A stretch of 64,000 bases of DNA from Candidatus Poribacteria bacterium (GTDB taxonomy: Bacteria > Poribacteria > WGA-4E > WGA-3G): positions 4,814,653-4,878,652 of the forward strand of contig OY764073.1 in NCBI GenBank assembly GCA_963668035.1, in the 5' to 3' direction. A model generated the notes under the pieces. That model searched no databases. It saw only the letters and a list, made by a program, of their open reading frames with translations, and was not told the origin of the DNA. The translations under genes were made by a program, and so were the position numbers. Below are positions 871-57,925 of the stretch, piece after piece. Position 1 is the first letter of the stretch. Every line of letters starts with the position of its first letter.

Positions 871-900
871 TTTACGCGAAATCGCGAAATGTGATATAAT
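871..900 (+). promoter_or_regulatory. candidate sigma70-type promoter (TTTACG-N18-TGaTATAAT, extended -10)
   Basis: Motif read directly in the ~350-nt non-coding gap upstream of the dioxygenase gene. Not validated. Confidence 0.3.
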
Positions 901-1920: not shown

Positions 1921-1936
1921 CGAGGTTGGGTAAAAA

Positions 1937-3633: not shown

Positions 3634-3804
3634 ATGAAGGGCAGCAGAACGTATAGTGAGACACAAGATCAGCCCGCGCTCACAGCACTGTTTGATATAG
3701 AACAGGCGCGTCAATCGGATTCATTTGATAAATGCTACCGAGACATCGTTCGTCTGCTTGATGAATTGCGAAAAACAGATGAAGCAACCAGTGAAAATGT
3801 GTAA
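3634..3804 (+). pseudogene. same-frame continuation of the DUF4276 gene after the in-frame TGA (56 aa, MKGSRTYSETQDQ...SFDKCYRDIVRLL)
   Basis: Nt 3634 is in the same frame as 3181. The combined length of 207 aa matches a full-length DUF4276 protein. Ends at TAA 3802-3804. Confidence 0.5.
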
Positions 3805-3819
3805 AATGGAGGACTCAAT

Positions 3820-10735: not shown

Positions 10736-10969
10736 CTGCCGCCTCTCACGGAAGCGGCTGCTAACTGCCAAACCGCCCTATTCACACTATCCACAAAATT
10801 TTTCCTTCCGGATGCCCCATATTGTGCAACACAAAGCAAAAATTGCCCATTTTTGTGCAGGTTAGTCCGTCTATAAAGGTCAGTCATCTGATATATGGCA
10901 AAGTTTACAATTGGCATCATATTTGCTACTATCCTCAGCAACTGGAAAATCAGATGGGAGGTCAAACCG

Positions 10970-13534: not shown

Positions 13535-13569
13535 GAAGAATAAGAACCGTTGAACAGGAGACCGAACCG

Positions 13570-20363: not shown

Positions 20364-21809
20364 TTAGAAGATCCCAAGGATCGGTTCGCCTTTGACCAAT
20401 TCGCGGGGTTGATCTAAATGGTTGTAGACGATCGTATGCGGGTCAATACCGAGGGTATGGTAGACTGTCGCGAGGATGTCGCGTGGATGCACCGGGTTCT
20501 CAAGCGGTGTTGAGCCTGTTGCATCCGACTTCCCGTAAACCTGTCCACCTCGGACACCTGCACCTGCGATTAACCCTGTGTAGCAATAGGGCCAGTGGTC
20601 GCGTCCATCAGGTGCGTTGCTATTCCCGGAGGTACTAATGCCCATCCGTGGTGAGCGTCCGAATTCACCGATCGCCAAGACGAGTGTATCCTCTAACATT
20701 CCGCGTTGATCCAAATCTTCCAACAGCGTGGAGACGGCACTATCTAACTTCGGGCAGTGAAGATTTTTCAGTGGACCGAAGTTGGTTGCATGCGTATCCC
20801 ATGCGGTTGTGTTCGGATTGCCGTTTGCGACAGAGGGCCAGTTCACCTGAACGAATCGGGTGCCGGCTTCGACCAATCGTCGAGCAAGGAGTGTGCTCTG
20901 TCCGAAGGTGTGTCTACCGTAGCGATCGCGCACTTCATCGGGCTCTTGGGACAGATCGAAAGCGTTGCGTGCCCGCTGTGACAGGATAAGGTTGTACGCC
21001 TTCTCGTAATACTCGTTCAAGGCGTAGGAGTCCGCCACTTTATCAATTTCGGGCATACTGGCGTTAATCGTCTCAAGAAGATTTTTCCGGCGTTTCAAGC
21101 GCACCGGGGGTACTTCTGGACGCAAGCTTAAGTCGTCCAGGTTAATATCCTGATTCGGGTCTTGGAAGAGGAAGTATGGATCATAAGCTCTGCCAAGGAA
21201 TCCTGCGTTTCCACCTTTGCCGATGATATTACTCTCTTGCATCGGACGTGGGAGTTGCACTGCTGCGAGCATCGGCTCATCGGGTGGACGATAGTTCGAG
21301 ATATGCGCTGCGGCATTCGGGTGGTCAGCAGGTGAAGGCGGATCCAGCTGCCCTGAAGGGGCGACCTTGTCCGGGGTTTCGCCTGTAACCATCTGATACA
21401 TGGCGGCGGTGTGGTTGAAAAGTCCTGCCGGTGTGTAGCTGACCGAACGAATAAGGCAGGCTTTGTCCATCTGCTGCGCCAAAAGCGGCATCGTCTCAGA
21501 TAACTGAATTCCATCCACATTGGTAGGTATCGGTTTAAATTCGCCGCGAATATTCGAGGGTGCATCCGGTTTCGGATCCCAGATGTCAAGGTGGCTAGGC
21601 CCGCCTTGCAAGAAGAGCAGGATGACCGAGTTGGCTTTGCCCCATCCGGTGAGCGGCTTCGCAGGGTCAACTGCCGTATTCGCGTTGGCTTGGAGTGACA
21701 ATACTTGTGGCAGACTAATGCCGAGCATCGCCGCACCACCGACACGTAGAAATTCACGACGTGAGAACCCGTCACACAAGCGCCCGGGTAGTTGTGGTAA
21801 CGATAACAT
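20364..21809 (-). CDS. DUF1501 domain protein (sulfatase-fold, Tat signal)
   Basis: SRREFLRVGGAAMLG twin-arginine leader, GGPSHLDIWDPKP, AIGEFGRSPR and GRDHWP. Confidence 0.85.
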   Translation of the reverse strand: MLSLPQLPGRLCDGFSRREFLRVGGAAMLGISLPQVLSLQANANTAVDPAKPLTGWGKANSVILLFLQGGPSHLDIWDPKPDAPSNIRGEFKPIPTNVDGIQLSETMPLLAQQMDKACLIRSVSYTPAGLFNHTAAMYQMVTGETPDKVAPSGQLDPPSPADHPNAAAHISNYRPPDEPMLAAVQLPRPMQESNIIGKGGNAGFLGRAYDPYFLFQDPNQDINLDDLSLRPEVPPVRLKRRKNLLETINASMPEIDKVADSYALNEYYEKAYNLILSQRARNAFDLSQEPDEVRDRYGRHTFGQSTLLARRLVEAGTRFVQVNWPSVANGNPNTTAWDTHATNFGPLKNLHCPKLDSAVSTLLEDLDQRGMLEDTLVLAIGEFGRSPRMGISTSGNSNAPDGRDHWPYCYTGLIAGAGVRGGQVYGKSDATGSTPLENPVHPRDILATVYHTLGIDPHTIVYNHLDQPRELVKGEPILGIF

Positions 21810-21834
21810 CTATTGCGTCCTCCATTGTTTTGGA

Positions 21835-21990
21835 GTTGTCAGTTGTCAGTCGTCAGTTTTCAGTTAAGAGGTTTCTGATGCTTGACCATCTCTTGGTAAC
21901 CGTTGTTATCCATAAGCGTAACAAGCGTGAGAAAGAGATATTGGTGAATCAAAAACCAGACTGAAAACTGATAACCGATAACCGATAACC
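21835..21990. repeat. second full copy of the composite heptamer-arm repeat, inverted relative to 17311-17466
   Basis: Arms at 21835-21865 and 21961-21990. The reverse complement of the core aligns along its whole length with 17341-17440. Confidence 0.75.
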
Positions 21991-21992
21991 AT

Positions 21993-24497
21993 TTAGCGAT
22001 TGAATAAGAAAGCGGGACTGTTAATTAATGCCCACAACAAATCTTGCGCGCCTTCTTCTCTGGATTCAGCGTTCGCGATATGTTCAACCGCTACTGCATA
22101 TTCGTTCTTCTCTGGTAACCGAGAAAACGTTGCAAGATATAGGTCCTCAACGAGCACTCGGTCATCCTGATTCGTTTTGATAAGTTGTGCAATTCGCCCT
22201 TTTGGGTCAATGAGTGCCTCTGCGACTGTGGGTCCATTGATGAGGTTCATTGCATGGGCGAGACTGACTTCGGTTGTACGTTCACATTCGCACGAAGTTT
22301 CGCGTTCGGGTCTACCAAACAGTTTCAAAAATCCATCATCTTTGACCTTGCTGTCTGGCAATTGAACTGCGCGGAAGTTCTTGGGTACCTCTTGGAACCG
22401 CGGTCGACTCCCTGTTGCGACTCCGATAGCATCTAACAACTGTTCAGCCGTCAAGCGTCTTGCGACGGCGTGTGAGAAGTTAATTGTATCGGACTTGTTC
22501 CACTTGTTCGTCTTGATACTCTGTTGGTAGGTTCGCGAACGCGTGATCGTTTTCATCATAAGTCTTATGTCAAATCCACTGTCCACGAAATCCTTTGTCA
22601 ATGCTTCAAGCAGCTCAGGGTTGCTTGGTGGATTACTCGTCCGGATGTCGTCCACAGGTTCGATGATCCCGCGTCCCATGAAGTAGCTCCAGATACGGTT
22701 CACGCCTGCGCGTGCGAACATCGGATTTTCCTTGGAAGTAAGCCACTTTGCAAGCATCTTTTGTTTATCGTCGGTTTCTGCTGCAACTTCCCCGAATGGC
22801 ACAGCCGGTTCAACGACTGCTAAGGTTCGGGGGTGTTTCACAGGATCTGTAGTAAAGTTGGCATAGACGACCTCATCGCCTGGGAGCTGGCCTGGCTTCA
22901 CTTTGACATCCGCGAAGAACGCGCCCAGTTGATAGTACTGGTTTTGCGTCCATTTCTCGAACGGGTGGTCGTGGCATTTGTTGCATGAAAAACGGACCCC
23001 TAAGAACAGCTGCGTCGTGTTTTCTACTGCAGCCGTATATTCACGGGAAACACGGAAATAACTCGCTGCAGGATTCGCGTAGGTGCTTCCGGTCGCCGTA
23101 ATCAAGTCTCGCACAAACTGGTCGTACGGACGATTTTGTGCGATGGCTTGATGGATCCATTGTTGGAAAAGCCAGACACCGCGTTCACCGAGGAATTTAC
23201 GGTTGGACTGCAGCAGGTCTCCCCACTTATGCGTCCAATGGTCAACGAATTCGGGGGTTTCGACGAGGGTGTCAATCAGTTTTTCGCGTTTAGTTTTAGA
23301 GGCGGCGGTATCCGCGAGGAAGTTCCGCGCCTGTTCAGGGGTCGGTGGGAGGCCTGTCAGATCGAAATAGATGCGGCGTACAAACTCTTCATCTGTGCAG
23401 AGCTGAGAAGGTAGGATTTTCATCCGCTTCAATTTATTATGCACATGCGTATCAATATAATTATATTCAGGTGTTTCCACCCACTGGTACCCGCTTCTAT
23501 CGCCCATGACGATGATGCCGTTTGTACTATAAGCACCCTCATATCGCGTGAGGATAGCCGTTTCGCCGCGGCGCTCTGCCGTTACCACACCGTCGTCAGT
23601 GATCTTTGCGACTTCATTGACACTGCTCGTGAATTTCGCCTCACGGGTGACATCCCGCGTTGTGCCATCCGGATAGTGGGCGATCACCAAAAGCTGCTGC
23701 TGCATACCGGGCATAGCGAGTTCAGCGGCATCGGGTAGGACCTCTAACCTTTCGACGCGCTGCGTGGTTTTAACATCAGAGTTCGCTCCTTCCGCTATCC
23801 ATTGGTGGATGATCTCATAATCCCGCGAGCCCGGTACGATCACCTGTCCACCTTTGTGTGGCACTTCGGATGTCGGTTTAAGTAACATCAGGCTCTGCTC
23901 GGGAAAAGCCCTATTGAAGCGTCTGCCGGATATATCCTCAATCAAGAGTTCATAATCAAAATCGGGATCGTAACCACGGAGTGAAAGTTTGAATCCATTT
24001 TTACCTTTTGCTGCCCCGTGGCATGTGCCGTTGTTACAGCCGGCATGGCTCAGGAGCGGCATGACATCCCGGACGAAACTGACAGGGGGTGCCTCGATGC
24101 TCTTGACCTCTACGGGTAATTCCGCACGTACGCCGCTGACGGTAACCTCGATTTTCGTTGTGCCAACTGCCATCGGAAAGATATAACTATCTTCATGCAC
24201 CTTTACCCCGGCGTTAGCGGGTGTGAGTACTGCCCACGGCGTTACATCTACCCATTTCCCTTCTTTTGTCTTTCCTGACACGAGTACGCGTCTACCGTCC
24301 CGCGCATGTTCTAATGTTAGCGACTCCGGATGAACCCTCAACGCCTTCAAAGCGACACTTGCGAGCCACTCTTCCGCTGTCGGCACTTCGGCACTTGTTG
24401 GTCGCGCCATTTCACTTTGCGCCGCTAACTGCCACGCGAAGCATAAGGCGCATGCAACAAGGAGTGTAGTTACAAAGTTAAACCTGGGTTTCATCAA
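21993..24497 (-). CDS. DUF1549/DUF1553 (PSD1-type) domain protein with N-terminal Ig-like domain
   Basis: Signal peptide, CNNGTCHGAAKGKNGFKLSLRGYD (DUF1549) and FLGVRFSCNKCHDHPFEKW (DUF1553). This is the typical partner of DUF1501. Confidence 0.85.
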   Translation of the reverse strand: MMKPRFNFVTTLLVACALCFAWQLAAQSEMARPTSAEVPTAEEWLASVALKALRVHPESLTLEHARDGRRVLVSGKTKEGKWVDVTPWAVLTPANAGVKVHEDSYIFPMAVGTTKIEVTVSGVRAELPVEVKSIEAPPVSFVRDVMPLLSHAGCNNGTCHGAAKGKNGFKLSLRGYDPDFDYELLIEDISGRRFNRAFPEQSLMLLKPTSEVPHKGGQVIVPGSRDYEIIHQWIAEGANSDVKTTQRVERLEVLPDAAELAMPGMQQQLLVIAHYPDGTTRDVTREAKFTSSVNEVAKITDDGVVTAERRGETAILTRYEGAYSTNGIIVMGDRSGYQWVETPEYNYIDTHVHNKLKRMKILPSQLCTDEEFVRRIYFDLTGLPPTPEQARNFLADTAASKTKREKLIDTLVETPEFVDHWTHKWGDLLQSNRKFLGERGVWLFQQWIHQAIAQNRPYDQFVRDLITATGSTYANPAASYFRVSREYTAAVENTTQLFLGVRFSCNKCHDHPFEKWTQNQYYQLGAFFADVKVKPGQLPGDEVVYANFTTDPVKHPRTLAVVEPAVPFGEVAAETDDKQKMLAKWLTSKENPMFARAGVNRIWSYFMGRGIIEPVDDIRTSNPPSNPELLEALTKDFVDSGFDIRLMMKTITRSRTYQQSIKTNKWNKSDTINFSHAVARRLTAEQLLDAIGVATGSRPRFQEVPKNFRAVQLPDSKVKDDGFLKLFGRPERETSCECERTTEVSLAHAMNLINGPTVAEALIDPKGRIAQLIKTNQDDRVLVEDLYLATFSRLPEKNEYAVAVEHIANAESREEGAQDLLWALINSPAFLFNR

Positions 24498-24680: not shown

Positions 24681-25574
24681 TTACGAGATACCCCAAAGTA
24701 AGACAGAGTTATCTTCACTCGCGCTCGCGAGTAAACTACCATCAGGTACGTAAGCGACGTTCCTGACACTCCCCGTATGTCCTATGAGTGTGTCCTTCAG
24801 TCTGCCTCTCTTGACATCCCACAACCGCACTGTGCCGTCACTACTCGCACTTGCAAGCGTTGTGCCATCAGGTGAAAATGCGACACTCCAGACATAGCCT
24901 CTATGTCCCGTGAGTGTGTTTTCCGCTTCGCCAGTTACTGCGTCCCACAGGCGCACCGTACGGTCAGTGCTTCCACTGGCAAGCGTTTCGCCATTCGGCG
25001 TGTAGACAGCGGAATTGACAATATGTTTATGCCCCGTGAGGGCTGCTTTGTGCTGTCCAGTGGCGGCATCCCAAAGTAGGACGGTATCATCTCCACTGCC
25101 AGCTGCGATTGTCTTTCCATCAGGCGAATACGTAACGGATCTAATAGAGAACTGATCCACAGTGAGCGTGTTCTTGCTCTCCGCTGTGCTTGCGTCCCAC
25201 AGGCGCACCGTGCCATCCGGACTTCCACTGGCGATGGTGGTACCGTCAGGCGAAAACGCAACACTTCTAACAGCGTCTGTATGTCCGGTGAGCGTTGCTG
25301 TCGGAGCCCCGCTGGTTGCGTCCCACAGAATAACCGTGTTGTCAATACTCCCACTTGCGATGACGCTGCCATCGGGCGCGTAAGCGACACATCTGACGTA
25401 TTCCTTATGCTCTACGAGGAGATTGAGTCCTGTTGCACTCTCCACGTCGTAGACCCAAACGCCGATGTCGCAAGCGACTGCAAGCTGTGTACCGTCTGGT
25501 GAGAAGGCTATATCTCCAGTTAGATTCCCTTGATCGAGTCGAGCTTTGACTCCTTCAGGTAGATTCGATTGCAT
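24681..25574 (-). CDS. WD40-repeat protein (7 repeats, no signal peptide)
   Basis: Seven units of H...V.SVAFSPDG...ASGS.D.TVRLWD. The N-terminal LPEGVKARL motif is shared with the two large WD40 proteins. Confidence 0.85.
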   Translation of the reverse strand: MQSNLPEGVKARLDQGNLTGDIAFSPDGTQLAVACDIGVWVYDVESATGLNLLVEHKEYVRCVAYAPDGSVIASGSIDNTVILWDATSGAPTATLTGHTDAVRSVAFSPDGTTIASGSPDGTVRLWDASTAESKNTLTVDQFSIRSVTYSPDGKTIAAGSGDDTVLLWDAATGQHKAALTGHKHIVNSAVYTPNGETLASGSTDRTVRLWDAVTGEAENTLTGHRGYVWSVAFSPDGTTLASASSDGTVRLWDVKRGRLKDTLIGHTGSVRNVAYVPDGSLLASASEDNSVLLWGIS

Positions 25575-26578: not shown

Positions 26579-27370
26579 CTATAACGGTAAATCTGTATTG
26601 TTTTGGCACTCGTGGAGTCGTTGATTTCCGATTTTCACGAAATTCGGTTCGATTTCAAATCCGATGAAATCCCGCTGATGTCGCTGACATACCACAGGAC
26701 AGGTACCTACACCGGCAAAAGGATCCAAAACAAGGTCCCCCGGTAAGGAACTCGCTAATACAATCCGTTCAATTAACCGCTCCGGTTTCTGAATTGTGTT
26801 CAGAGCCTCTCTACAGACTAACTCTTTTGACTTATATGTCAACTGTTTTATATCTCCCCAGACATTACCGGGGTTCTTTCCTTTTGCGTTAAACTTGGTT
26901 TTTCCGAATTTGCCGTTCGTTACGGATGGCACGTTTTCACACCGAAGTCGATGTTCCAACTCAACAAGTTGCGAGACTCTGATAGCATCCAAGTTATAGC
27001 ATTGTGGCTTTTTACCTTTGATGAAATAACAGATAATATCGTAGTTGTTCGTGTAATTGATGCGTCCTTGTGCCAGCCGACTCGGTTGATACCATACAAT
27101 CTTTGAACGGAGGTTTAAAAATGGACGATAATCAATAAAGTCGATACAATCGGGTTTGCCGAACAGATAAAGTGCACCGCCGTCTTTCAATTTGGGTGTG
27201 AACTTTTCGATGAGTGCAAGATTAAATTCCTGAATTGAGGGTATCTGGTCCCACGGTTCATCTGTTACGCCATACGGGCCATCACACACAATTAGATCTA
27301 CCGATGTATCTTGGACTTCATCCAATAGCGTAAACGTATCGCCACAATAGATATTGTTGTGTTCAAGCAT
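26579..27370 (-). CDS. beta-class DNA methyltransferase (N6-adenine or N4-cytosine), no cognate nuclease nearby
   Basis: Motif IV variant DLIVCDGPYG near the N-terminus and motif I VLDPFAGVGT near the C-terminus. Confidence 0.8.
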   Translation of the reverse strand: MLEHNNIYCGDTFTLLDEVQDTSVDLIVCDGPYGVTDEPWDQIPSIQEFNLALIEKFTPKLKDGGALYLFGKPDCIDFIDYRPFLNLRSKIVWYQPSRLAQGRINYTNNYDIICYFIKGKKPQCYNLDAIRVSQLVELEHRLRCENVPSVTNGKFGKTKFNAKGKNPGNVWGDIKQLTYKSKELVCREALNTIQKPERLIERIVLASSLPGDLVLDPFAGVGTCPVVCQRHQRDFIGFEIEPNFVKIGNQRLHECQNNTDLPL

Positions 27371-27381: not shown

Positions 27382-28833
27382 TTACATCGGTCCCACCCGC
27401 CGCGGGCCTATGTCCATAGCGAACATAGACGCGTCAAAACTCTGTTTTAGCAGCTCCATCTTGATGTCTTGCTTATCGGGTACATGCCAGAGATTGTCAA
27501 ACTCGTCCGGATCCGCAATTAAGTCGTAGAGTTCGCCCTCCTCGTGTCCGTGATAGACTACCAATTTATAACGTTGATTTCTATACATCGTTGCGAAAGA
27601 GTGGTCTCGGAGATCGACAGCATCGTAGTACTCACATCGGACGAAGTCCCGATGATGGTTGGCATCCGCTTCACCGCGAAGGATAGGTAGCAGCGATCGT
27701 CCGTGCATGCCTTCGGGTGGCGTTAATCCCGCTAACGCCAAAAGTGTCGGTGCTTTGTCAACGAGCTCAACGAGTGCGTTGCTTTTTAGACCCTTCACAA
27801 ACTGCCCTGGTTTCCATGCAAAAATCAACGGCACCCTGACCAAGCCTTCATAAAATCGGCACCCTTTCTGGATCAGTCCGTGGTCGCCGAGCGTTTCTCC
27901 GTGGTCAGAGGTAAAAATGATAACAGTATTTTCGCGTTGTCCTGTTTCCTCAAGCGTTTCGAGAATTCTGCCGAGCTGCTCATCAATAAGTTGAATCATT
28001 GCGTAATAGGCGGCTTTGAGCGTCCTGGCATCCGTTGACCCAACTGCCTCCGTCTCTTTACGCGGGGTCTGCGGTAGAATTGGACTACGGATATCCAGTT
28101 CATCTGGCGTGCGGACTTTAGACTGAAAATCGACTGCTTTTAGTCGGGTCTGCTGTTCAAGATCGCTGTTTCGGAAGAGCGGCTCTGGCATTTCCGAAGG
28201 AGCAAACCGTTCTCGGTGCGTCTGTGGCGGATTAAACGGCGGATGCGGATCGTAGATATTGACGCTTGCAAGCCACGGGCCATCGCGTTCTTCGCGAATG
28301 AACTCTATTGTCTTTTCTGCACACCACGTCGTCTGATGCAATTCTGCTGGTACACCTTCTGGATTTCGATTCAATTCACCTAAAATATAACCTTTTGCGC
28401 GTACCCAATCTGCGTAGTCGTGTCCGTGTTCCCAGTCGTCTCTGGGTGCGTGGCTGTATTGCCAATAGCGGTATCCGTCATCTGTCCGGGGTTCTATCCG
28501 GCGGTAAGCACTCGCAAGATGGAGTTTGCCAATCAATCCGCAATCATAGCCGATGTCTGCGAGGGTACGCGTCACAAGTGGATACGCGTTCGGAAAGAAA
28601 TCGTTTCCGTTGCGATTTGCGTGTGTCGCGCTCGGATACATACCTGTGAGAAAACTCGCCCGACTCGGTGTGCAAATAGGGCTTTGACAATAGGCATGCG
28701 TGAACGCAACCCCATCCTCTACGAGACTATCAATGTTTGGCGTTGACACGAACGGATTGCCCAACGCGCCGATTGTGTCGTAACGTTGTTGGTCCGTGCA
28801 AATCCAGAGTATATTGGGGGCGTTAGCAGCCAT
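27382..28833 (-). CDS. sulfatase (formylglycine-dependent)
   Basis: NILWICTDQQR, CTPSRASFLTGMYPS (C-x-P-x-R) and FTSDHGE. Confidence 0.9.
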   Translation of the reverse strand: MAANAPNILWICTDQQRYDTIGALGNPFVSTPNIDSLVEDGVAFTHAYCQSPICTPSRASFLTGMYPSATHANRNGNDFFPNAYPLVTRTLADIGYDCGLIGKLHLASAYRRIEPRTDDGYRYWQYSHAPRDDWEHGHDYADWVRAKGYILGELNRNPEGVPAELHQTTWCAEKTIEFIREERDGPWLASVNIYDPHPPFNPPQTHRERFAPSEMPEPLFRNSDLEQQTRLKAVDFQSKVRTPDELDIRSPILPQTPRKETEAVGSTDARTLKAAYYAMIQLIDEQLGRILETLEETGQRENTVIIFTSDHGETLGDHGLIQKGCRFYEGLVRVPLIFAWKPGQFVKGLKSNALVELVDKAPTLLALAGLTPPEGMHGRSLLPILRGEADANHHRDFVRCEYYDAVDLRDHSFATMYRNQRYKLVVYHGHEEGELYDLIADPDEFDNLWHVPDKQDIKMELLKQSFDASMFAMDIGPRRVGPM

Positions 28834-28886: not shown

Positions 28887-30491
28887 CTATTTCGCTGTTG
28901 CACTAAACCCAGTCTCTTTAACGATGTTCGCGAGATCGTTCACGGTAGCGGTGTTTTTTCGGACCTTAATGACGGCTTGATCGGGGAGAGAAACTTCAAC
29001 ACTGATAACGCTCTGGTGATGTGTAAGTGCATCCTGCACTTTTGCGACACACGCCCCTCACGTCATGCCTGAGACGACCAGAGCCACCTCTTCGCTTCCT
29101 GCGGGTTCAATCGGCACAGACATAAAGGCGTTCAAGAGTTTACCGGAAGCGGTATCAAATATCCGAACCTTTCCGTCAAACCCGCCTGTGGCGAGCTGTT
29201 TGCCATCCGGGTGGAACGCGACTGCGAAAACCCCGACTGCATCGCCTTGCATTGAGGCGATCCGCGTCCCATTTGCTACGTTGTAGATACGCGCTTCGCC
29301 GCCCGCGCAGCCGGTAGCCAATTGACTGCCATCCGCCGAAAACGCAACACCTTCAATTGAACCGGATTGCGCTTCATAGGCGCGGATGAGATTAAAATCT
29401 GTATTGCCGACATCTCTCCGTATTTCACGGAAGATTTTGTAGAGCCGCGGTATCCGGTCTTCACCTGCACTTAAAACCTGGTCTGCAGTCGGGTGTCGTG
29501 CGATGGTATTGATTTCGCCGTAGCCTTTGTTGCTGGAGTTGATGTCATCAACAAAAGAGCCTGTGTCTACTTCGACCAATTTGAGGGCAGTATCACGGCC
29601 AGCACTCACGAAATGTGAGCCATCAACAGAAAAGATTGTCCCGAAAACCCAATCGCTGTGATTATCGAATTTAATAAGTTCTTTTTCATCTTCAACGGAT
29701 AGGACCCGGACTGTTTGATCGGAGCATCCGAAAGCGACACGACTGGCATCGGGTGAGAAGGAGAGTCCGTAAATCGTATCATAGCTGGAACGCATCGCTT
29801 TGATGAGGGTATTCGTTGCGGTATCCCAGAGTTGGACTTCACCAAATTGTGCGGCGGATCCGCCTGCTACGCCTAATATTTTTCCATCTGCCGTATAGAT
29901 TAGTGATTCGATGCGACGCGCTTTCCCAACCAATCGCGCTTTGGGTTCAAAATGGACTGTGTCATACAATAAAACTTCGCGGACACCTGACACTGCAAGC
30001 GTGCTGCCATCGGGTGAGTATGCCAGGGCAGTAACCAGCGGCGGGACGATGTAAGTAGGATAGTTTCCGTCTCCTATATCGTCGACTTCGGCGGGTGTGT
30101 CGTCGTTCGCGCCTTCAAGGATCCAACGCCGAAAGAGTTCGACCTCTTCTGGAGAGAGAGGTTCTTGATTTTGTGGCATCGCGGGTTCGTCCCCGGAGAT
30201 GAGTTCAATGAGGAGGCTTTCATCGGGTTTCCCTGGAAGGATCGCATCCCCTGCCATTCCGCCGCGCTTGAGATCCGCGTAATTCGTGACAATCAGGTCA
30301 CCGCTCGGTTCACCGGGGTGGTGGCAGCCTTGACAACTCCGTTTGAGAATTGGGACGATCTGTGAATGGTAGCTGACGGGTGCCGCTGCGCCGTGATTGT
30401 CTGCCGTTACAACAAGCGGGACCCATACGATAAGGAAACCGAGTAAGGACACTGCTAAATGGATCGTAAACTTTGATTGCGATATTTTCAT
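28887..30491 (-). CDS. candidate selenoprotein: planctomycete-type cytochrome c domain + beta-propeller + C-terminal HMA domain with UGA (Sec) at the first Cys of the GMTCxxC motif
   Basis: CQGCHH haem motif and WD40-like repeats. The ORF ends ...VALVVSGMT at TGA 29058-29060, then continues in frame with GACVAKVQDAL...ETGFSATAK to TAG 28887-28889. A SECIS-like hairpin follows the TGA. ATG 30491 is preferred as the start (signal-anchor MKISQSKF...). Confidence 0.75.
29019..29052 (-). promoter_or_regulatory. SECIS-like hairpin downstream of UGA 29060-29058
   Basis: The mRNA reads GUGUGU-CGCAA-AAGUGCA-GGA-UGCACUU-ACACAU: a 7-bp apical stem with a GGA loop, plus a 6-bp lower stem. The loop lies ~26 nt after the U of UGA. 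Confidence 0.6.
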
Positions 30492-30706
30492 GTTGTTAAG
30501 ACCCTCTACAAAAAGGTTATCGGGCTTACAAAGCCCTCCTACAATAGCAAACTCGCCAAAAGTGTCGTTGTTAGTATACTTTAGCAATAATTATATCACA
30601 ATTTCATGACGAAATTCAAGAAAATTAATCTGAATCAGGATTTACTGGGGAAAATTCGATCGAAAAATGGACAATTGAATGGCTTCGGCACACATTCTGT
30701 TTTTGG

Positions 30707-48371: not shown

Positions 48372-48740
48372 TTAATTGTCGCCTCGCATAAGGGATTCCA
48401 CTTCGGGCAGGACTTGTGCAACTGCTGCCTGATCAACATTGTCAGCCACGCTGCTGTAACCTGCTGTGTGAATCATCTCTACGAGGTTTTGTCCGAGTTG
48501 TTCAATTGTCCATGCCACTGAATCTGGCACGCTCGCTTTATCGAGAGATCGCTGATCGTTCTTCCCAGAGGGATCGTAGTGGTAGTGTGGATTCTTACGA
48601 AAGCAGTCGAAACGGAGGAGTTGGATATTTTCACCGTCCGTTTCGCCGTAAACACGCACAGAGGGGCCGCCATCTGCTCCGAAATTACGGTCATCAACGT
48701 GGAGTTCAACGCCTCCGACTTGGAACACTTTTTCAGTCAT
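48372..48740 (-). CDS. hypothetical protein (122 aa)
   Basis: ATG 48740 follows GGAGG. No family was recognised. Confidence 0.5.
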   Translation of the reverse strand: MTEKVFQVGGVELHVDDRNFGADGGPSVRVYGETDGENIQLLRFDCFRKNPHYHYDPSGKNDQRSLDKASVPDSVAWTIEQLGQNLVEMIHTAGYSSVADNVDQAAVAQVLPEVESLMRGDN

Positions 48741-48836
48741 CAATTTTTCCTCCAATTTACGAAAATGCAAACATATTATACATCAAAGTCAGAAATATGT
48801 CAATCAAAACTGTTTTTTGGCAAGGCGCGAAAAAAC

Positions 48837-48865
48837 TTGCAATTTTCGAATATTAATGGTAAAAT
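48837..48865 (+). promoter_or_regulatory. candidate sigma70 promoter TTGCAA-N17-TAAAAT
   Basis: Read ~55 nt upstream of the SelW-like start codon. Confidence 0.4.
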
Positions 48866-48919
48866 TTTAAGATAAAATGGTCGGATTGCGAATATTTTAA
48901 CGAGGAGGAATAATACCCC

Positions 48920-49150
48920 ATGGAAGTGAGAATTGAATACTGCACCGCTTGAAACTACAAACCCCGGGCAGCCAGTTTGGCAGATGCCTTAAAAGAAAAG
49001 TACGGTGCAGACGTTAAGACAGTTGATCTGATTCCAGGTAGTGGTGGGGCTTTTGAAGTCTCGCTAAACGGCACCCTGCTCTACTCGAAGTTAGAAACCG
49101 GACAGTTTCCAACAACGGAGCAGGTAACAACTGCGATAGACGCGGTATAG
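48920..49150 (+). CDS. SelW/SelT/SelH (Rdx) family selenoprotein, 76 aa, CxxU redox motif
   Basis: GAGGAGG RBS. MEVRIEYCTA-U(TGA 48950-48952)-NYKPRAASLADALKEKYG...LIPGSGGAFEVSLNGTLLYSKLETGQFP. A SECIS-like hairpin follows the TGA. Absent from the ORF track because the TGA splits it. Confidence 0.8.
48967..48988 (+). promoter_or_regulatory. SECIS-like hairpin downstream of UGA 48950
   Basis: GGCA-GCCA-GUU-UGGC-AGA-UGCC: two 4-bp stems, a 3-nt bulge and an apical GUU loop ~25 nt after the U of UGA. Confidence 0.55.
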
Positions 49151-49171
49151 TTTGAATCGCATCTTTGGAAG

Positions 49172-49211
49172 GGCGGCGGCTTTTATTGTAGTGCCTCCGC
49201 CTCTCTTTTTT
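49172..49211. terminator. hairpin plus T-run between the convergent SelW-like and lpxI genes
   Basis: GGCGGCGGC-N12-GCCTCCGCC (one mismatch) followed by TCTCTTTTTT. Confidence 0.45.
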
Positions 49212-49213
49212 AC

Positions 49214-50017
49214 TCATTCGACAGCAACGATTGCGATTTTCCATCGGTCTGCTTGCTGAATGAGTGCGTTGGCATCCATAACAAAAGTTCGCCGCGCTTC
49301 TACTGCCAACACACCCGCTTTAACTTCATGCAACATTGCTAATGTTTGCATGCCGACCGTCGGTACATCAATACGGAAATCGTGATCCTCGGCGGATGCT
49401 TTCGCAACAACCACACCCTTCTTTCCCAAGTTCCCGCCTCTTTTAATAGTAGCATCTGTCCCTTCAATCGCTTCAATCGCAAGGACGATCTGATTCTTAA
49501 CGACAACAGTCTGCCCAATATCCATATTTGCGATCTGGCGTGCAGTTGTGATACCGAGCTCTATATCTGCTTGTTGGCTTGAAGTCGGTGGGCGCGCTGT
49601 TAAAACGCCCGGTTGTGGAAGAAGATCCTGGAGGTAACGGTCTTGCGGAAGGATAGTGAGTCCCTTGGATTCAAGATAGTTGAGTACTGCATTGACAATT
49701 GCGGCGGGTTTTTCACGGCGGTTCTGAACTAAAATTTTAATCGTAGTCGTATCTATTTGGAACGGACGCAGCAGGATGTTTTTTTCAACCTTACCGATAA
49801 TCACGACCTCTCGGACACCGGCATCGAGAAGTGTTCGAGCGATCTTTTGAATCTGTCCGACCCCATAAGTATGAATTTCGGCGGTAATTCCGGCAAAGCG
49901 TTGTGCATCAGATTTTGTAATTTGGACGATAACAGGCTTCCGATCCTGGGCGACAGCGGCACGCGCCAATAGCACCGGCAACTCACCTGCCCCCGCAATA
50001 ATCCCTAACTTTTCCAT
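49214..50017 (-). CDS. lpxI: UDP-2,3-diacylglucosamine pyrophosphatase LpxI (DUF1009)
   Basis: MEKLGIIAGAGELPVLLA and the C-terminal FRIDVPTVGMQTL motif. Sits in lipid A gene context. Confidence 0.8.
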   Translation of the reverse strand: MEKLGIIAGAGELPVLLARAAVAQDRKPVIVQITKSDAQRFAGITAEIHTYGVGQIQKIARTLLDAGVREVVIIGKVEKNILLRPFQIDTTTIKILVQNRREKPAAIVNAVLNYLESKGLTILPQDRYLQDLLPQPGVLTARPPTSSQQADIELGITTARQIANMDIGQTVVVKNQIVLAIEAIEGTDATIKRGGNLGKKGVVVAKASAEDHDFRIDVPTVGMQTLAMLHEVKAGVLAVEARRTFVMDANALIQQADRWKIAIVAVE

Positions 50018-50066
50018 AATTTTATTCTGATGTTTTCATCAATCTTCGGACAGGAGCCCCCATGCT

Positions 50067-51095
50067 TTAGCTTGGGGAGGAATGTCCGCTCCTATAGTTA
50101 AAGTTAATGCGTGTGAGTGTTTTAAAATCAGATCGTTTCGCACCTGTTGTTAAGCGTTTGCCAGTTTCTAAACTATAAAGTGCAAACAAGCCTTTCGCAT
50201 TGACGCCAGATAGGCGTGTCAAACCATATTTGATATGTTTAACCAAAGTGTTTTTGATTAAACCTTGACCTAATACAGTTCCACCATATCTTGAACGTTT
50301 TCGTCCTTTTGATTCTTGTTCTCTGTGCAACGTTCTGCGTTTGATAGGTATAGGGGATATACAAAAAATATCAGTATTATCAGGTATCTCTGTTCCACCT
50401 ACAGTGTGATATGCCAGACACCAACTATCCACACAATGTGCGTCAAATATTTCTGATAGTTTCTTTGACGACTTCTTGAGACCGAGACGATCGCGTATCT
50501 CTTTGGTTTCGTATCCTTGTAGTGTCAGTAGTTTCCAACGCTTTTCTATCTCGGTATAGAACCATTGCTTACCGACTTCCAAAGGACTGAAAGATTGATT
50601 CCATTTATTCGCACGTTTAATTGTCCGTGCTTTAATGTCTTCTACACAGACGTGTGTGATAGGATAGAGTTTGGAAAGCCAGTCAAGAATACGCAACTTC
50701 CAATCCCACCTTGCACGTGTCCCCGCGGGCATACGTTCTTTGTTCGCAAGGCGGTTCGTTCTGTTTGGACGGTTCGGACACTTTCGGGAACGTCTGCCTC
50801 TACGCAACTCACGACGCTTTTCTACTTTCTTTCCTACCTTGTTGTGAGCATCCGCTTGCACATTCAAATAGGTATGTGACTCTGATTTGACAGTCCAGCC
50901 TTCTTTCTTACTACCGGGGTCTACACCTACACATATCTCTTGTGTCCATTCCGTCGTATCGTAGTTGAGTCTAATACAGAATATACCATTAGACCAATAG
51001 GGTGTTGCCAATCTTTTTTTGATTAGCATACCGGCTTTGTTCGGATGAGTTGGCATTAAGCGTTTACCGTCTTGACTCGTTACAGGAACAAACAT
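50067..51095 (-). CDS. isrB: IsrB-type OMEGA nuclease (IscB homologue lacking HNH; RRXRR/PLMP + split RuvC)
   Basis: PLMP-like GKRLMPTHPNKAGMLIKK, RuvC-I GVDPGSKKEGW, bridge helix KRRELRRGRRSRK, RuvC-II HVCVEDIKA, and RuvC-III FDAHCVDSW. There is no Cys/His HNH insert and no Zn ribbon. Confidence 0.8.
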   Translation of the reverse strand: MFVPVTSQDGKRLMPTHPNKAGMLIKKRLATPYWSNGIFCIRLNYDTTEWTQEICVGVDPGSKKEGWTVKSESHTYLNVQADAHNKVGKKVEKRRELRRGRRSRKCPNRPNRTNRLANKERMPAGTRARWDWKLRILDWLSKLYPITHVCVEDIKARTIKRANKWNQSFSPLEVGKQWFYTEIEKRWKLLTLQGYETKEIRDRLGLKKSSKKLSEIFDAHCVDSWCLAYHTVGGTEIPDNTDIFCISPIPIKRRTLHREQESKGRKRSRYGGTVLGQGLIKNTLVKHIKYGLTRLSGVNAKGLFALYSLETGKRLTTGAKRSDFKTLTRINFNYRSGHSSPS

Positions 51096-51296
51096 ACTTT
51101 GTAATCTCCCTTTCGGGTTATATATTGCCCCTTCCAGATCGCAGTATCAAAGTGGGATCAGACGAGGGGAGTATCCGAAACATAGTTGAGGCTGCCACGC
51201 CCAAGATACTGCGATATTTTACTGTAGAAAATAGTTTAACTTGTGGAGTGAACGTTTGGCATACGCTTCGCACAAGCCCCATGCTTTAGCTTGGGG
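51096..51296 (-). ncRNA. candidate omega-RNA scaffold of the IsrB element
   Basis: ORF-free leader on the isrB strand. Perfect 11-bp long-range pairing of 51138-51148 with 51205-51215, a CCC-GAAA-GGG tetraloop hairpin at 51108-51117, and the terminal palindrome at 51276-51296. The position matches the IscB/IsrB paradigm. Confidence 0.55.
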
Positions 51297-51330
51297 TTAT
51301 TGACCAGAAACCCAATATTTAAAAAGTCCG

Positions 51331-52155
51331 TTAACCCATTAGGGTGCGATTGGGCTGGCTAAATCCGATGCCACGTTTGGAGGTCTCAATAAATTCAAGA
51401 AGGTATTCAACTTCTGGAGTCGGTTCGAGTTCTTCCTTGACTCTCGCAACCGCATGTTTCAGAGGTATACCGGAACGGAACAAGATGCGGAACGCCTTTT
51501 TCAACGCTGCAAGCGTTTCAGGAGTCAGCTGAGACAACGGATTAATCCGCGATGTTCGGATGCCGATACGGTTGAGACTCCGTACACGTGCGGGTTGTCC
51601 TGCAGACAGCATAAAGGGTGGAATATCTTGGACAATCTTTGAGAACCCGCCCGCCATCGCCATTTTGCCGACACGCACATATTGGTGGAGCGCGGCATGC
51701 GCTCCCAACCGAACATCATCTTCAATCACAACATGCCCCGCAAGCGACACAAAATTTGCCATGATCGTCCTATTGCCGACGATAGTGTCATGTGCAAGAT
51801 TAACCCAATTCATCAGCAGATTGTTGTCGCCAACGATAGTTGATCCCTCCTCAAATGTTGATCTGGAGATAGAAACGTATTCGCGCAAAATATTGCGATC
51901 ACCGATCTTCACATAACTCCGCCAACCATCGTACTTCAAGTCTTTAGATTGATTCCCAATAGTAGCCCCGAAGAAAATCTCACATTCTTCACCAATCGTT
52001 GTCCATTTCTCGATCTGAACATGCGGACCTATTACGGTGCCACGCCCGATATGAACGTCTTCACCGATAAGGCTATAGGGGCCAACTTTGACGCCCTCTT
52101 CCAGGGTTGCTTTTGGAGAGATAATAGCCGTCGGATGAATATTAGTTTCTAACAT
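51331..52155 (-). CDS. lpxA: acyl-ACP--UDP-N-acetylglucosamine O-acyltransferase
   Basis: Left-handed beta-helix hexapeptide repeats (IHPTAIISPKATLEEGVKVGPYSLIG...) plus the LpxA C-terminal helical domain. Confidence 0.9.
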   Translation of the reverse strand: MLETNIHPTAIISPKATLEEGVKVGPYSLIGEDVHIGRGTVIGPHVQIEKWTTIGEECEIFFGATIGNQSKDLKYDGWRSYVKIGDRNILREYVSISRSTFEEGSTIVGDNNLLMNWVNLAHDTIVGNRTIMANFVSLAGHVVIEDDVRLGAHAALHQYVRVGKMAMAGGFSKIVQDIPPFMLSAGQPARVRSLNRIGIRTSRINPLSQLTPETLAALKKAFRILFRSGIPLKHAVARVKEELEPTPEVEYLLEFIETSKRGIGFSQPNRTLMG

Positions 52156-57007: not shown

Positions 57008-57925
57008 GTGCAATTGGCTATCAAATTTGAAGACGATAACCCAATTTCCAATCATCGCCTCTATTATGGCGATAATCTCTCGATTCTTCAGGAATATATT
57101 TCTGATGAGAGTGTCAACCTGATTTACATCGATCCGCCGTTTAACACCGGCAGGCTTCAACAGCGCACACAAATTCAAGTTGAAGCGGATGCCCAAGGGG
57201 ACCGTGTCGGCTTCCAAGGCAAGACATACCGGATAACAAAAGGCGAAACGATACACTATTCCGATAAGTTCGAGAGTTTAGATGAATACTTGCAATTTTT
57301 ACGTCCCCGTTTTGAAGAGGCGTACCGAGTGCTACACCCGCACGGTAGCTTTTTTCTTCATATCGATTACCGGGCGGTGCATTATTGTAAGGTTAGGCTT
57401 GACGAGATTTTCGGCTTAGAATCGTTCATGAACGAGATTATCTGGGCTTATGATTACGGAGGGCGTGCCAAGTCATGGTGGTCCCCTAAACACGACAATA
57501 TCTTGTGGTACGCTAAAAATCCGAAGCACTATACCTTCAATTTTGAAGAGATGGATAGGATTCCGTATATGGCACCCGGTTTGGTCGGTAAAGAGAAGGC
57601 AGCACGCGGCAAAACGCCAACGGATGTTTGGTGGCATACCATCGTCAACACCAATGGAAAAGAAAAAACCGGGTATCCAACGCAAAAACCGCTTGGGATA
57701 CTTAATCGTATCGTCAAGGTGCATTCAGCACCAGGCGACACGCTTTTAGATTTTTTTGCCGGTAGCGGTACGCTTGGAGAAGCAGCAGCAAGCCAAAACC
57801 GTTCCGCTATTCTGGTTGATAACAATATCCCCGCAATCAGGTGTATCATGGATAGATTAGAGGCTTACGGTATTGAACTCACTAATGCTGATTACCAGAC
57901 ACTCGGCACGCACACAGTGGAATAG
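57008..57925 (+). CDS. beta-class DNA methyltransferase (N4/N6 type), no cognate nuclease nearby
   Basis: Motif IV NLIYIDPPFNTG and motif I LLDFFAGSGTLGEAA. GTG start at 57008. Confidence 0.8.
   Translation: MQLAIKFEDDNPISNHRLYYGDNLSILQEYISDESVNLIYIDPPFNTGRLQQRTQIQVEADAQGDRVGFQGKTYRITKGETIHYSDKFESLDEYLQFLRPRFEEAYRVLHPHGSFFLHIDYRAVHYCKVRLDEIFGLESFMNEIIWAYDYGGRAKSWWSPKHDNILWYAKNPKHYTFNFEEMDRIPYMAPGLVGKEKAARGKTPTDVWWHTIVNTNGKEKTGYPTQKPLGILNRIVKVHSAPGDTLLDFFAGSGTLGEAAASQNRSAILVDNNIPAIRCIMDRLEAYGIELTNADYQTLGTHTVE

What the first reader, a model, noticed from the sequence alone, without database searches (positions are those of the whole stretch)
48920..49150. Unannotated 76-aa SelW/Rdx-family selenoprotein (CxxU) with SECIS-like hairpin
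No ORF is listed here because an in-frame TGA (48950-48952) splits the gene into pieces below the reporting threshold. Read through, it gives MEVRIEYCTA-U-NYKPRAASLADALKEKYGADVKTVDLIPGSGGAFEVSLNGTLLYSKLETGQFPTTEQVTTAIDAV. That is the bacterial SelW-like/Rdx signature: IEYC-x-x-U near the N-terminus, G-x-FEV, and SK...G-x-FP. A strong GAGGAGG RBS precedes the ATG, and a TTGCAA-N17-TAAAAT promoter-like motif lies upstream. The mRNA folds as GGCA-GCCA-GUU-UGGC-AGA-UGCC (48967-48988), with the GUU loop ~25 nt after the UGA. This is good independent evidence that the genome uses selenocysteine.
Basis: partly seen in the sequence, partly recalled or inferred. Interest (0 to 1): 0.65.

Follow-up and report, generated by a model that had tools for sequence, protein, structure and literature searches.

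The report
SelW-like selenoprotein gene of a Poribacterium
This is a genuine but ordinary small selenoprotein gene (SelW-like/Rdx family, Cys-x-x-Sec) of a sponge-associated Poribacterium, missed by ORF callers only because its selenocysteine is encoded by an in-frame UGA followed by a conserved SECIS hairpin.

Summary
Window 48920-49150 (+) is a 76-codon ORF with one in-frame TGA at 48950-52. With U read as C it matches Pfam Rdx (89 bits) and NCBIfam TIGR02174 and NF041051 above their cut-offs. An AlphaFold model superposes on six bacterial SelW-related crystal structures (TM 0.9, rmsd 0.9 A).

The TGA is present in 81 of 81 orthologues: 64 Poribacteria genomes, 16 genomes of other phyla, and the window. 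Peptide is conserved on both sides of it. TGA is an ordinary stop elsewhere in the window.

The downstream hairpin is not unusually stable by itself. However, its 4-bp apical stem pairs in 37 of 37 distinct sequences with compensatory changes, its loop G is invariant, and synonymous variation is nearly absent in codons 16-23 (p = 2.5e-4).

In two Bacillota genomes the orthologue lies among selD, selC, selB and selA. Homologues are abundant in sponge metatranscriptome contigs, with the TGA intact.

The Sec machinery is not in the window. Published COG tables list SelA, SelB and SelD in three Poribacteria genomes, one of which carries an orthologue.

Bacterial SelW-like selenoproteins have been known since 2005, so novelty is low. 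The main value is correcting an annotation, since databases hold 57-aa truncations or CxxW misreads.

The parts
48837..48865 (+). Promoter-like site: -35 TTGCAA, 17-nt spacer, TG-extended -10 TAAAAT
   Evidence: Found by the consensus scan. The motif cTTGCAAt...TGgTAAAAT recurs upstream of the orthologue in Poribacteria loci of both clades. Function is inferred, not shown.
48902..48908 (+). Shine-Dalgarno GAGGAGG, 11 nt before the ATG
   Evidence: Read from the sequence. An SD-like core lies at -18..-6 in 72 of 79 loci. Loose ends of metatranscriptome contigs also show AGGAGG before the ATG. There is no SD before the alternative TTG at 48977.
48920..49150 (+). SelW-like/Rdx selenoprotein gene: 76 codons plus stop, product MEVRIEYCTAUNYKPRAASLADAL...
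   Evidence: Translation. Pfam Rdx scores 89.4 bits. NCBIfam TIGR02174 and NF041051 match. PDB relatives 2fa8, 2ojl, 2obk, 2p0g and 2npb match by sequence. The AF2 model has pLDDT 93 and Foldseek TM 0.9.
48941..48952 (+). Redox motif Cys8-Thr-Ala-Sec11 (TGC ACC GCT TGA); the Sec codon is 48950-48952
   Evidence: TGA is present in 81/81 orthologues. Cys8 is invariant. The position aligns with the second Cys of the CxxC motif in Atu0228 and the Bordetella protein. In the model the motif lies in the loop between beta1 (residues 2-8) and alpha1 (residues 14-31). TGA is unchanged in 17 RNA-derived contigs.
48966..48989 (+). SECIS-like hairpin inside the coding sequence: lower stem GGGCA/UGCCU, 3' AGA bulge, apical stem GCCA/UGGC (48971-48974 with 48978-48981), loop GUU (48975-48977)
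   Evidence: This is the MFE fold. The apical stem is paired in 37/37 sequences, with 3 of 4 pairs changed on both sides, and 0/500 shuffles reach the observed value. The loop G is invariant and its spacing from the UGA is gapless. Synonymous entropy is 0-0.53 bits in codons 16-23 against a median of about 1.4 elsewhere, Mann-Whitney p = 2.5e-4.
49167..49213 (+). Terminator-like GC-rich hairpin followed by a U-run, between the convergent SelW-like and lpxI genes
   Evidence: Fold energy is -19.2 kcal/mol, z = -2.17, with 3/200 shuffles as stable. The consensus scan missed it because the loop is 12 nt. Function is inferred.

Best explanation
Window 48920-49150 encodes a 76-residue SelW-like (Rdx family) selenoprotein of a sponge-associated Candidatus Poribacteria bacterium.

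Proposed expression: transcription starts from a sigma-70-type promoter at about 48837-48865 and ends at the hairpin plus U-run at 49167-49213. Translation starts at the ATG at 48920, behind a GAGGAGG Shine-Dalgarno. When the ribosome reaches UGA at codon 11, the hairpin 14-39 nt downstream (apical GCCA-GUU-UGGC) acts as a bacterial SECIS. It would bind the C-terminal winged-helix domains of SelB carrying GTP and Sec-tRNA(Sec), which delivers selenocysteine instead of release factor 2 terminating.

[quoted passage not shown] Cys8-x-x-Sec11 sits at the beta1/alpha1 junction. The motif most likely cycles between a selenol/thiol and a selenenylsulfide form, working as a thiol-dependent oxidoreductase or antioxidant.

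Shown here: the sequence features, family and fold membership, conservation of the UGA, RNA-level constraint on the hairpin, and presence in RNA-derived contigs.

Inferred: SelB-dependent Sec insertion, promoter and terminator function, and redox chemistry. The substrate is unknown, as it is for the whole family.
For: Family: Pfam Rdx 89.4 bits, E = 1.7e-25. TIGR02174 scores 81 bits and NF041051 scores 90.5 bits. PDB sequence hits to SelW-related proteins have E = 1.6e-12 to 2e-4, with query position 11 aligned to the second Cys of CxxC. The AF2 model has pLDDT 93.1 and b-a-b-b-b-a topology. Foldseek gives TM 0.89-0.94 and rmsd 0.9-1.1 A to 2fa8, 2obk, 2ojl, 2oka, 3dex and 2p0g, and TM 0.71 to mouse SelW 2npb.

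Recoding: TGA is at codon 11 in 81/81 orthologues from Poribacteria and at least 8 other lineages. The ten codons upstream are protein-conserved with synonymous variation, for example E6 GAA/GAG 40/22 and T9 using four codons. TGA ends 10 of 41 Pfam-supported ORFs in the window. None of those ORFs has an internal TGA, and all 295 Trp codons are TGG, so this is not code 4 or 25.

SECIS: there is covariation in the apical stem, an invariant loop G and fixed spacing. Synonymous sites are frozen in codons 16-23, p = 2.5e-4.

Context: in Virgibacillus the order is selD, tRNA-Sec(UCA), selB, SelW-like(TGA), selA. In Rossellomorea the gene lies between selD and selA. SelA, SelB and SelD COGs are reported in Ca. 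Poribacteria WGA-3G, bin44 and bin70 (PMC5649159), and WGA-3G carries the orthologue L045.

Expression: homologous contigs in 7 sponge or coral metatranscriptomes have word depth of about 240-2700 over the gene, against about 1-100 on lpxI, lpxA and lpxC. The TGA is intact in them.

Precedent: SelW-like CXXU proteins are the most abundant selenoprotein family in Sargasso Sea data (PMC1088965).
Against: No selA, selB, selC or selD is in the 64-kb window, so Sec-decoding capacity of this particular genome is unverified.

The hairpin is short, and its energy is no better than shuffled sequence (z = +0.45).

Part of the GCC...GGC complementarity is favoured by the Ala-Ala-x-Leu-Ala peptide itself, so protein-level and RNA-level constraint are partly confounded. 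The frozen synonymous sites argue that RNA constraint exists on top of this.

The lower stem is not conserved between Poribacteria (AGA bulge) and other phyla (continuous stem); it pairs in 68% of cells.

Metatranscriptome evidence comes from assembled contigs of related strains (85-97% alike). Word depth is a poor measure of expression, and DNA carry-over is possible (tool caveat).

There is no direct evidence of selenium in the protein.
Confidence: 0.9

Rival explanations
1. UGA at codon 11 is read as cysteine rather than selenocysteine. This would use a tRNA(ReC)/SelC*-type tRNA working with SelB and the same SECIS hairpin, giving a CxxC Rdx protein.
For: Such tRNAs, which decode UGA as Cys in the presence of a downstream SECIS, are described in several bacterial phyla (Vargas-Rodriguez 2018, as summarised in PMC13582414). 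Sequence analysis alone cannot separate Sec from Cys insertion.
Against: The 2026 survey reported tRNA(ReC)-like genes in Armatimonadota, Desulfobacterota and JAPLJL01, not Poribacteria. SelA and SelD COGs, which are needed to make Sec, are reported in Poribacteria genomes. In Virgibacillus the orthologue sits beside a tRNA-SeC together with selA and selD. If Cys were intended, a TGC/TGT codon would be simpler, yet 81/81 orthologues keep TGA.
Confidence: 0.04
2. The real product is the 57-aa protein started at TTG 48977, as annotated in NCBI for Poribacteria MAGs. The upstream ten codons would be untranslated leader, so there is no selenoprotein.
For: Gene callers and PGAP output 57-58-aa proteins for many orthologues (P0015-P0030). 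The ORF list gives 48977-49150.
Against: There is no Shine-Dalgarno before the TTG, while a strong conserved one precedes the ATG. The ten upstream codons are conserved as protein with synonymous changes in 62 Poribacteria genes. A 57-aa product would lack strand beta1 and the CxxU motif, which are core to the Rdx fold. The Rdx profile match begins at residue 2.
Confidence: 0.02
3. The gene is a pseudogene, or the TGA is a sequencing or assembly error, and the hairpin is a chance feature of an Ala-rich coding stretch.
For: The hairpin energy is not better than shuffles. The gene is small.
Against: TGA is at the same codon in 81 independent assemblies, including closed chromosomes, and in 17 RNA-derived contigs. 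The reading frame is intact downstream with strong protein conservation. There is covariation and synonymous constraint in the hairpin.
Confidence: 0.01

Closest known systems
Bacterial SelW-like selenoproteins (CXXU), as catalogued by Zhang, Fomenko and Gladyshev 2005 (PMC1088965), Zhang et al. 2006 (PMC1794560) and the GOS analysis (PMC2398784); NCBIfam TIGR02174 CXXU_selWTH and NF041051
   Same: The size is similar (about 75-80 aa) and the N-terminal I-E-Y-C-x-x-U-N-Y motif is shared. The UGA is followed directly by an in-ORF SECIS with a small apical loop carrying a G. The fold is thioredoxin-like. These proteins are frequent in marine bacteria. The match is above the curated cut-offs.
   Different: Nothing essential differs. 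The host phylum (Poribacteria) is not discussed in those papers. In Poribacteria the lower SECIS stem has a 3' AGA bulge instead of the continuous GCCGCCA/UGGCGGC stem seen in other phyla.
Cys-containing bacterial Rdx proteins with solved structures (Atu0228 2FA8, P. fluorescens 2OBK, Bordetella 2OJL, P. aeruginosa 2OKA, S. avermitilis 3DEX, V. cholerae 2P0G)
   Same: The model has the same fold (TM 0.89-0.94, rmsd about 1 A). The CxxC motif aligns with CxxU, and the GG-x-FE and F-P motifs are shared.
   Different: These proteins have Cys (TGY) instead of Sec, are about 25 residues longer, and are only 26-34% identical. At the SECIS position they read R-A-[AG]-W-M-A rather than R-A-A-S-L-A. 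This fits the idea that the SECIS dictates that peptide in the Sec forms.
Mammalian selenoprotein W (mouse SelW, 2NPB) and MIEN1 (2LJK)
   Same: They belong to the same Rdx superfamily, have the same b-a-b-b-b-a fold, and carry a CxxU or CxxC motif in the same loop (PMC3527542).
   Different: In eukaryotes the SECIS lies in the 3' UTR and is a kink-turn element read by SBP2 and eEFSec, not an in-ORF hairpin read by SelB. The match is weaker (TM 0.66-0.71, E = 2e-4 by sequence).
E. coli fdhF SECIS (the archetypal bacterial SECIS)
   Same: It is a hairpin just 3' of the UGA, inside the ORF, with G-U at the start of a small apical loop roughly 20-25 nt after the UGA. This comparison rests on general knowledge and was not tested here.
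   Different: The element here has a much shorter apical stem (4 bp) and a 3-nt loop, and it lacks the bulged U of fdhF. Its binding to SelB is untested.

Membership tests
Rdx family (SelW/SelT/SelH; Pfam PF10262, NCBIfam TIGR02174) | Profile-HMM match above the curated threshold over the whole domain | tested here: met
   PF10262 scores 89.4 bits (cut-off 22.6), covering residues 2-74 of 76. TIGR02174 scores 81 bits (cut-off 34.2). NF041051 scores 90.5 bits (cut-off 88, so only marginally above)..
Rdx family (SelW/SelT/SelH; Pfam PF10262, NCBIfam TIGR02174) | CxxC/CxxU motif near the N-terminus, in the loop between beta1 and alpha1 | tested here: met
   C8-T-A-U11. It aligns with CTQC of 2fa8 and 2ojl. 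In the model, beta1 is residues 2-8 and alpha1 is residues 14-31.
Rdx family (SelW/SelT/SelH; Pfam PF10262, NCBIfam TIGR02174) | [quoted passage not shown] | tested here: met
   The AF2 model (of the 88%-identical orthologue P0002) has pLDDT 93.1 and elements E-H-E-E-E-(H)-H. Foldseek gives TM 0.89-0.94 to six bacterial SelW-related structures. This is a predicted structure, not an experimental one.
Rdx family (SelW/SelT/SelH; Pfam PF10262, NCBIfam TIGR02174) | Thiol/selenol-based redox activity | not testable with these tools
   This needs biochemistry. It is only inferred from the motif and from the measured redox potential of the paralogue MIEN1 (PMC3527542).
Bacterial selenoprotein gene (SelB/SECIS-dependent UGA recoding) | In-frame UGA at a position occupied by Cys in homologues, with conserved coding sequence on both sides | tested here: met
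   TGA is present in 81/81 orthologues. It aligns with Cys in the PDB homologues. The upstream codons are under protein-level conservation.
Bacterial selenoprotein gene (SelB/SECIS-dependent UGA recoding) | [quoted passage not shown] | tested here: met
   The hairpin spans 48966-48989 with loop GUU, 22 nt after the UGA. G26 is invariant and the apical stem is 100% paired with compensatory changes. Synonymous sites are constrained. bSECISearch itself was not available. Hairpin stability alone is not significant.
Bacterial selenoprotein gene (SelB/SECIS-dependent UGA recoding) | UGA is otherwise a stop codon in the genome (no global reassignment) | tested here: met
   10 of 41 Pfam-supported ORFs end in TGA. 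None has an internal TGA, and all 295 Trp codons are TGG.
Bacterial selenoprotein gene (SelB/SECIS-dependent UGA recoding) | selA, selB, selC (tRNA-Sec) and selD present in the same genome | not testable with these tools
Indirect support: SelA, SelB and SelD COGs are reported in Ca. Poribacteria WGA-3G, bin44 and bin70 (PMC5649159). The sel cluster surrounds the orthologue in L071 and L065.
Bacterial selenoprotein gene (SelB/SECIS-dependent UGA recoding) | Selenium actually incorporated at the UGA position | not testable with these tools
   This requires 75Se labelling or mass spectrometry.

The most novel reading that the evidence does not exclude
The SelW-like selenoprotein may be a universally conserved and exceptionally highly expressed core gene of sponge-associated Poribacteria. 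It is kept in a fixed position convergent with lpxI. It could be the main reason this phylum, and sponge symbionts generally, retain the selenocysteine machinery, for example as a front-line defence against host-derived oxidants. Its SECIS is a lineage-specific short variant: a 4-bp apical stem plus an AGA bulge. A less likely twist is that the UGA is read as Cys by a tRNA(ReC)-type system.
Probability: 0.3. Interest if true: 0.35.

Novelty: already known. Interest (0 to 1): 0.2.

Why it matters
The main value is correcting an annotation. In public databases the Poribacteria orthologues appear in two wrong forms: as 57-58-aa N-terminally truncated 'SelT/SelW/SelH family proteins' lacking the active site, or as 76-aa proteins with Trp at the Sec position from code-4 gene calling. 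Recognising the full CxxU protein adds one entry to the selenoproteome of a prominent uncultivated sponge-symbiont phylum. It also fits earlier reports that sponge symbionts are enriched in SelA and SelB (PMC5649159). The apparent high transcript abundance in sponge metatranscriptomes suggests the protein matters physiologically. The biochemical role of SelW-like proteins is still unknown in any bacterium, and this locus does not by itself open a new way to resolve it.

Tried and rejected
1. Hairpin stability as evidence. Folding 48945-49005 gave z = +0.45 against shuffles, so stability alone was rejected as support. I used covariation and codon analysis instead.

2. Rfam. There was no hit in the window at gathering thresholds. 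Rfam has no usable general model for bacterial SECIS here, so this was uninformative.

3. Sec machinery in the window. ARAGORN found no tRNA. A Pfam sweep of about 50 ORFs found no SelA, SelB or SelD.

4. Other selenoprotein genes in the window. A scan for ORFs interrupted by TGA was too noisy and gave no convincing second candidate.

5. Sec machinery near orthologues. There was none in the flanks of 64 Poribacteria loci or in two 10-kb contexts. The only success was in the Bacillota loci L065 and L071.

6. Global genetic-code change (TGA = Trp or Gly). Rejected on the basis.

7. Cys-containing close homologues. None appeared among the 38 protein hits or the 80 loci. All near relatives use TGA, so the Cys comparison rests on the distant PDB proteins.

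8. Seeded protein search for Poribacteria SelA or SelB. I ran no further search on this. Seeds from Bacillota or E. coli would return thousands of closer hits first, and the tool cannot filter by taxon.

9. Functional link with lpxI/lpxA. The arrangement is convergent with a terminator between the genes, and is conserved in 45/64 Poribacteria loci. It is absent outside the phylum, so I treat it as synteny, not an operon.

Full report
**1. The observation**

Window 48920-49150 on the + strand reads ATG, nine sense codons, TGA (48950-48952), 65 further sense codons, then TAG. The mechanical ORF list shows only a 57-aa TTG-initiated piece (48977-49150), which is under the default 60-aa threshold. 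GAGGAGG lies at 48902-48908. TTGCAA-N17-TAAAAT, with a TG-extended -10, lies at 48837-48865. Its energy (-10.4 kcal/mol) is no better than dinucleotide shuffles, with z = +0.45. So the features are all there, but the hairpin alone would not be evidence.

**2. Family**

With U replaced by C, the protein matches three profiles:
- Pfam Rdx (PF10262) at 89.4 bits, E = 1.7e-25, over residues 2-74.
- NCBIfam TIGR02174 'CXXU_selWTH' at 81 bits.
- The equivalog NF041051 at 90.5 bits, just above its cut-off of 88.

By sequence it hits the solved bacterial SelW-related proteins 2FA8, 2OJL, 2OBK, 3DEX, 2OKA and 2P0G, human MIEN1 and mouse SelW. Residue 11 aligns with the second Cys of their CxxC motif.

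I built an AlphaFold model from 15 homologues, using an 88%-identical orthologue as the target. It has pLDDT 93 and topology beta1(2-8) - CxxU loop - alpha1(14-31) - beta2 - beta3 - beta4 - alpha2. It superposes on those crystal structures at TM 0.89-0.94 and rmsd about 0.9-1.1 A, with thioredoxins following at lower scores. This is the minimal thioredoxin-like fold described for the family (PMC3527542).

**3. Organism and context**

The nearest proteins and 64 of the 80 related genomic loci are from Candidatus Poribacteria MAGs and single-cell genomes. The window DNA is found in sponge metagenomes. The window's gene content fits this: many WD40 proteins, sulfatases, and a PSCyt/PSD1/DUF1501 set.

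The gene is convergent with lpxI, followed by lpxA, lpxC-fabZ, yceG and ruvX. The lpxI/lpxA neighbourhood is kept in 45 of 64 Poribacteria loci and in two longer contexts. A GC-rich hairpin plus U-run (49167-49213; -19.2 kcal/mol, z = -2.2) separates the two convergent genes. The divergent upstream gene encodes a DUF7700 protein and has its own perfect TTGACA-17-TATAAT promoter on the minus strand.

**4. Is the UGA decoded?**

- All 81 orthologues have TGA at codon 11: the window, 64 Poribacteria, and 16 from Bacillota, Gemmatimonadota, deltaproteobacteria, Pirellulales, Acidobacteria, Chloroflexi, Actinomycetota and others.
- The 76-aa database proteins that read C-x-x-W are this TGA translated as Trp by gene callers. 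The 57-58-aa entries, including NCBI 'SelT/SelW/SelH family protein [Candidatus Poribacteria bacterium]', are the piece after the TGA.
- The ten codons before the TGA are conserved as protein while varying synonymously (I5, E6, Y7 and T9).
- A Shine-Dalgarno precedes the ATG in 72 of 79 loci, and none precedes the downstream TTG.
- TGA is an ordinary stop in this genome. It ends 10 of 41 Pfam-supported ORFs, none has an internal TGA, and all 295 Trp codons are TGG.

A pseudogene, a sequencing error, a downstream start and a reassigned code are therefore all excluded or very unlikely.

**5. Is the hairpin a SECIS?**

I aligned 37 distinct sequences from the TGA onward, and the alignment is gapless. 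The four apical pairs (window 48971-48974 with 48978-48981) form standard pairs in 37 of 37 sequences. Three of the four pairs show changes on both sides: GCCA/UGGC becomes GUCA/UGAC, GCGA/UCGC, GCAA/UUGC or UCCA/UGGA. The first loop base G is invariant. No shuffle out of 500 reaches the observed covariation, and sliding the 3' partner drops pairing from about 80% to 12-48%.

The lower stem differs by lineage. Poribacteria use GGGCA/UGCCU with a 3' AGA bulge, while other phyla use a continuous GCCGCCA/UGGCGGC stem.

Within the 62 Poribacteria genes (pairwise nucleotide identity 55-99%), synonymous codon entropy is 0-0.53 bits for codons 16-23 (R-A-A-S-L-A-D-A). Examples are Ser19 = AGT in 62/62 and Ala18 = GCC in 61/61. 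Four- and six-fold degenerate codons elsewhere have a median of about 1.4 bits, for example Ser56 at 1.83 and Leu37 at 2.30. The Mann-Whitney test gives p = 2.5e-4.

This RNA-level constraint, the loop G and the fixed position 22 nt after the UGA match the bacterial SECIS description: a small apical loop with a conserved guanosine directly downstream of the UGA (PMC1088965). Cys-containing homologues read R-A-[AG]-W-M-A at this place. This suggests the A-A-S-L-A peptide of the Sec forms is dictated by the SECIS.

One caveat applies. Ala codons favour GCC/GGC complementarity, so protein and RNA constraints are partly entangled.

**6. Sec machinery**

The window has no tRNA gene and no SelA, SelB or SelD domain in any sizeable ORF. 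The indirect evidence is good:
- (a) In Virgibacillus byunsanensis (L071) the TGA-containing orthologue lies in the order selD, tRNA-SeC(UCA), selB, SelW-like, selA. In Rossellomorea aquimaris (L065) it lies between selD and selA.
- (b) Slaby et al. 2017 report that SelA and SelB COGs co-occur in most sponge-symbiont bins. Their Table S4 gives SelA/SelB/SelD counts of 2/1/1 for Ca. Poribacteria WGA-3G, 4/1/2 for bin44 and 2/1/1 for bin70, and both bins are Poribacteria. WGA-3G is the genome of my orthologue locus L045.
- (c) A 2026 survey lists Poribacteria among phyla with Sec-containing group 4 hydrogenases.

**7. Expression**

Assembled contigs from seven sponge or coral metatranscriptomes cover close homologues (85-97% alike). 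Word depths are roughly 240-2700 over the gene, against about 1-100 over lpxI, lpxA and lpxC. A narrow lay at a 1% reporting threshold shows no difference at 48950-48952 in 17 contigs. The only variant is the K/Q codon at 48959. These are contigs of related strains, word depth is only a rough proxy, and DNA carry-over cannot be excluded. The gene nevertheless appears strongly transcribed, with the UGA intact.

**8. Mechanism**

The most likely mechanism is standard bacterial Sec insertion. SelB carrying GTP and Sec-tRNA(Sec) is tethered by the in-ORF hairpin when the ribosome reaches UGA-11. This yields a 76-residue thioredoxin-like protein whose Cys8/Sec11 pair forms a reversible selenenylsulfide. 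The substrate is unknown, as it is for the whole family. Zhang et al. note only the CXXU redox motif and glutathione binding of mammalian SelW.

The one rival that sequence analysis cannot exclude is Cys insertion by a tRNA(ReC)-type tRNA. I rate it at about 4%.

**9. Novelty**

Bacterial SelW-like CXXU selenoproteins with in-ORF SECIS elements are well established. They were the most abundant selenoprotein family in the Sargasso Sea data set, with 48 genes, and are catalogued across bacterial genomes and the GOS data. NCBIfam carries dedicated models. I found no paper dealing with the Poribacteria gene specifically, and the database entries for it are truncated or mistranslated. Even so, this is a routine member of a known family.

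Noticed in passing
window 50017-51346 (ORF 50067-51095 on the - strand; RNA-like region 51120-51304 on the - strand): A roughly 1.3-kb insertion lies between lpxI and lpxA and is absent from the other Poribacteria loci. It carries a 342-aa ORF with a Pfam RRXRR domain that matches the solved IsrB protein (PDB 8DMB, E = 6.8e-35) and, more weakly, IscB proteins. Just upstream is a weak but full-length, correctly oriented HEARO/omega-RNA match (RF02033, 19.6 bits, E = 0.36, far below the gathering score of 83). Metatranscriptome contigs over 51146-51342 reach word depths of 700-4700. Some contigs join 50016/50023 directly to 51341/51347, which is the empty site. This looks like an IsrB-omegaRNA (OMEGA, IS200/605-type) element with an abundantly transcribed guide-RNA scaffold.
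   Followed up: partly
L071 1-4669 (Virgibacillus byunsanensis) and L065 1713-4694 (Rossellomorea aquimaris): In these cultured Bacillota the SelW-like selenoprotein gene is embedded in the sel gene cluster. In L071 the order is selD, tRNA-SeC, selB, SelW-like(TGA), selA. In L065 it is selD, SelW-like(TGA), selA. The SelW-like protein may therefore be co-regulated with the Sec machinery there, or even functionally tied to it.
   Followed up: partly
window 48771-48919: The intergenic region holds divergent promoters. A perfect consensus TTGACA-17-TATAAT on the minus strand (48803-48775) would drive the DUF7700 gene (48372-48770, - strand). It lies back to back with the SelW-like promoter.
   Followed up: no
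window 48953-48955 and the same codon in all loci: The codon after the UGA is AAC (Asn) in 62 of 62 Poribacteria genes and in nearly all other phyla. Asn50 in the same gene uses AAC/AAT at 41/17. This may reflect a context requirement of UGA-A-A-C for recoding rather than termination.
   Followed up: no
window 10895-16110, 24681-25574, 29058-30587; 3820-5223 and 27382-28833; 20364-24497: The window has several large WD40-repeat proteins, two sulfatases and a PSCyt2/PSD1 + DUF1501 pair. These are hallmarks of sponge-associated Poribacteria (eukaryote-like repeat proteins, sulfated-glycan degradation). Two N6/N4 DNA methylases (26579-27370, 57008-57925) and an AAA_21/DUF4276 pair (1937-3633) suggest defence islands.
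   Followed up: no
protein database entries P0001-P0014, P0019, P0031, P0032: Public metagenome gene calls of this family carry Trp at the Sec position (CxxW). Short contigs were evidently translated with a TGA = Trp code, which is a systematic annotation artefact for small selenoproteins.
   Followed up: yes
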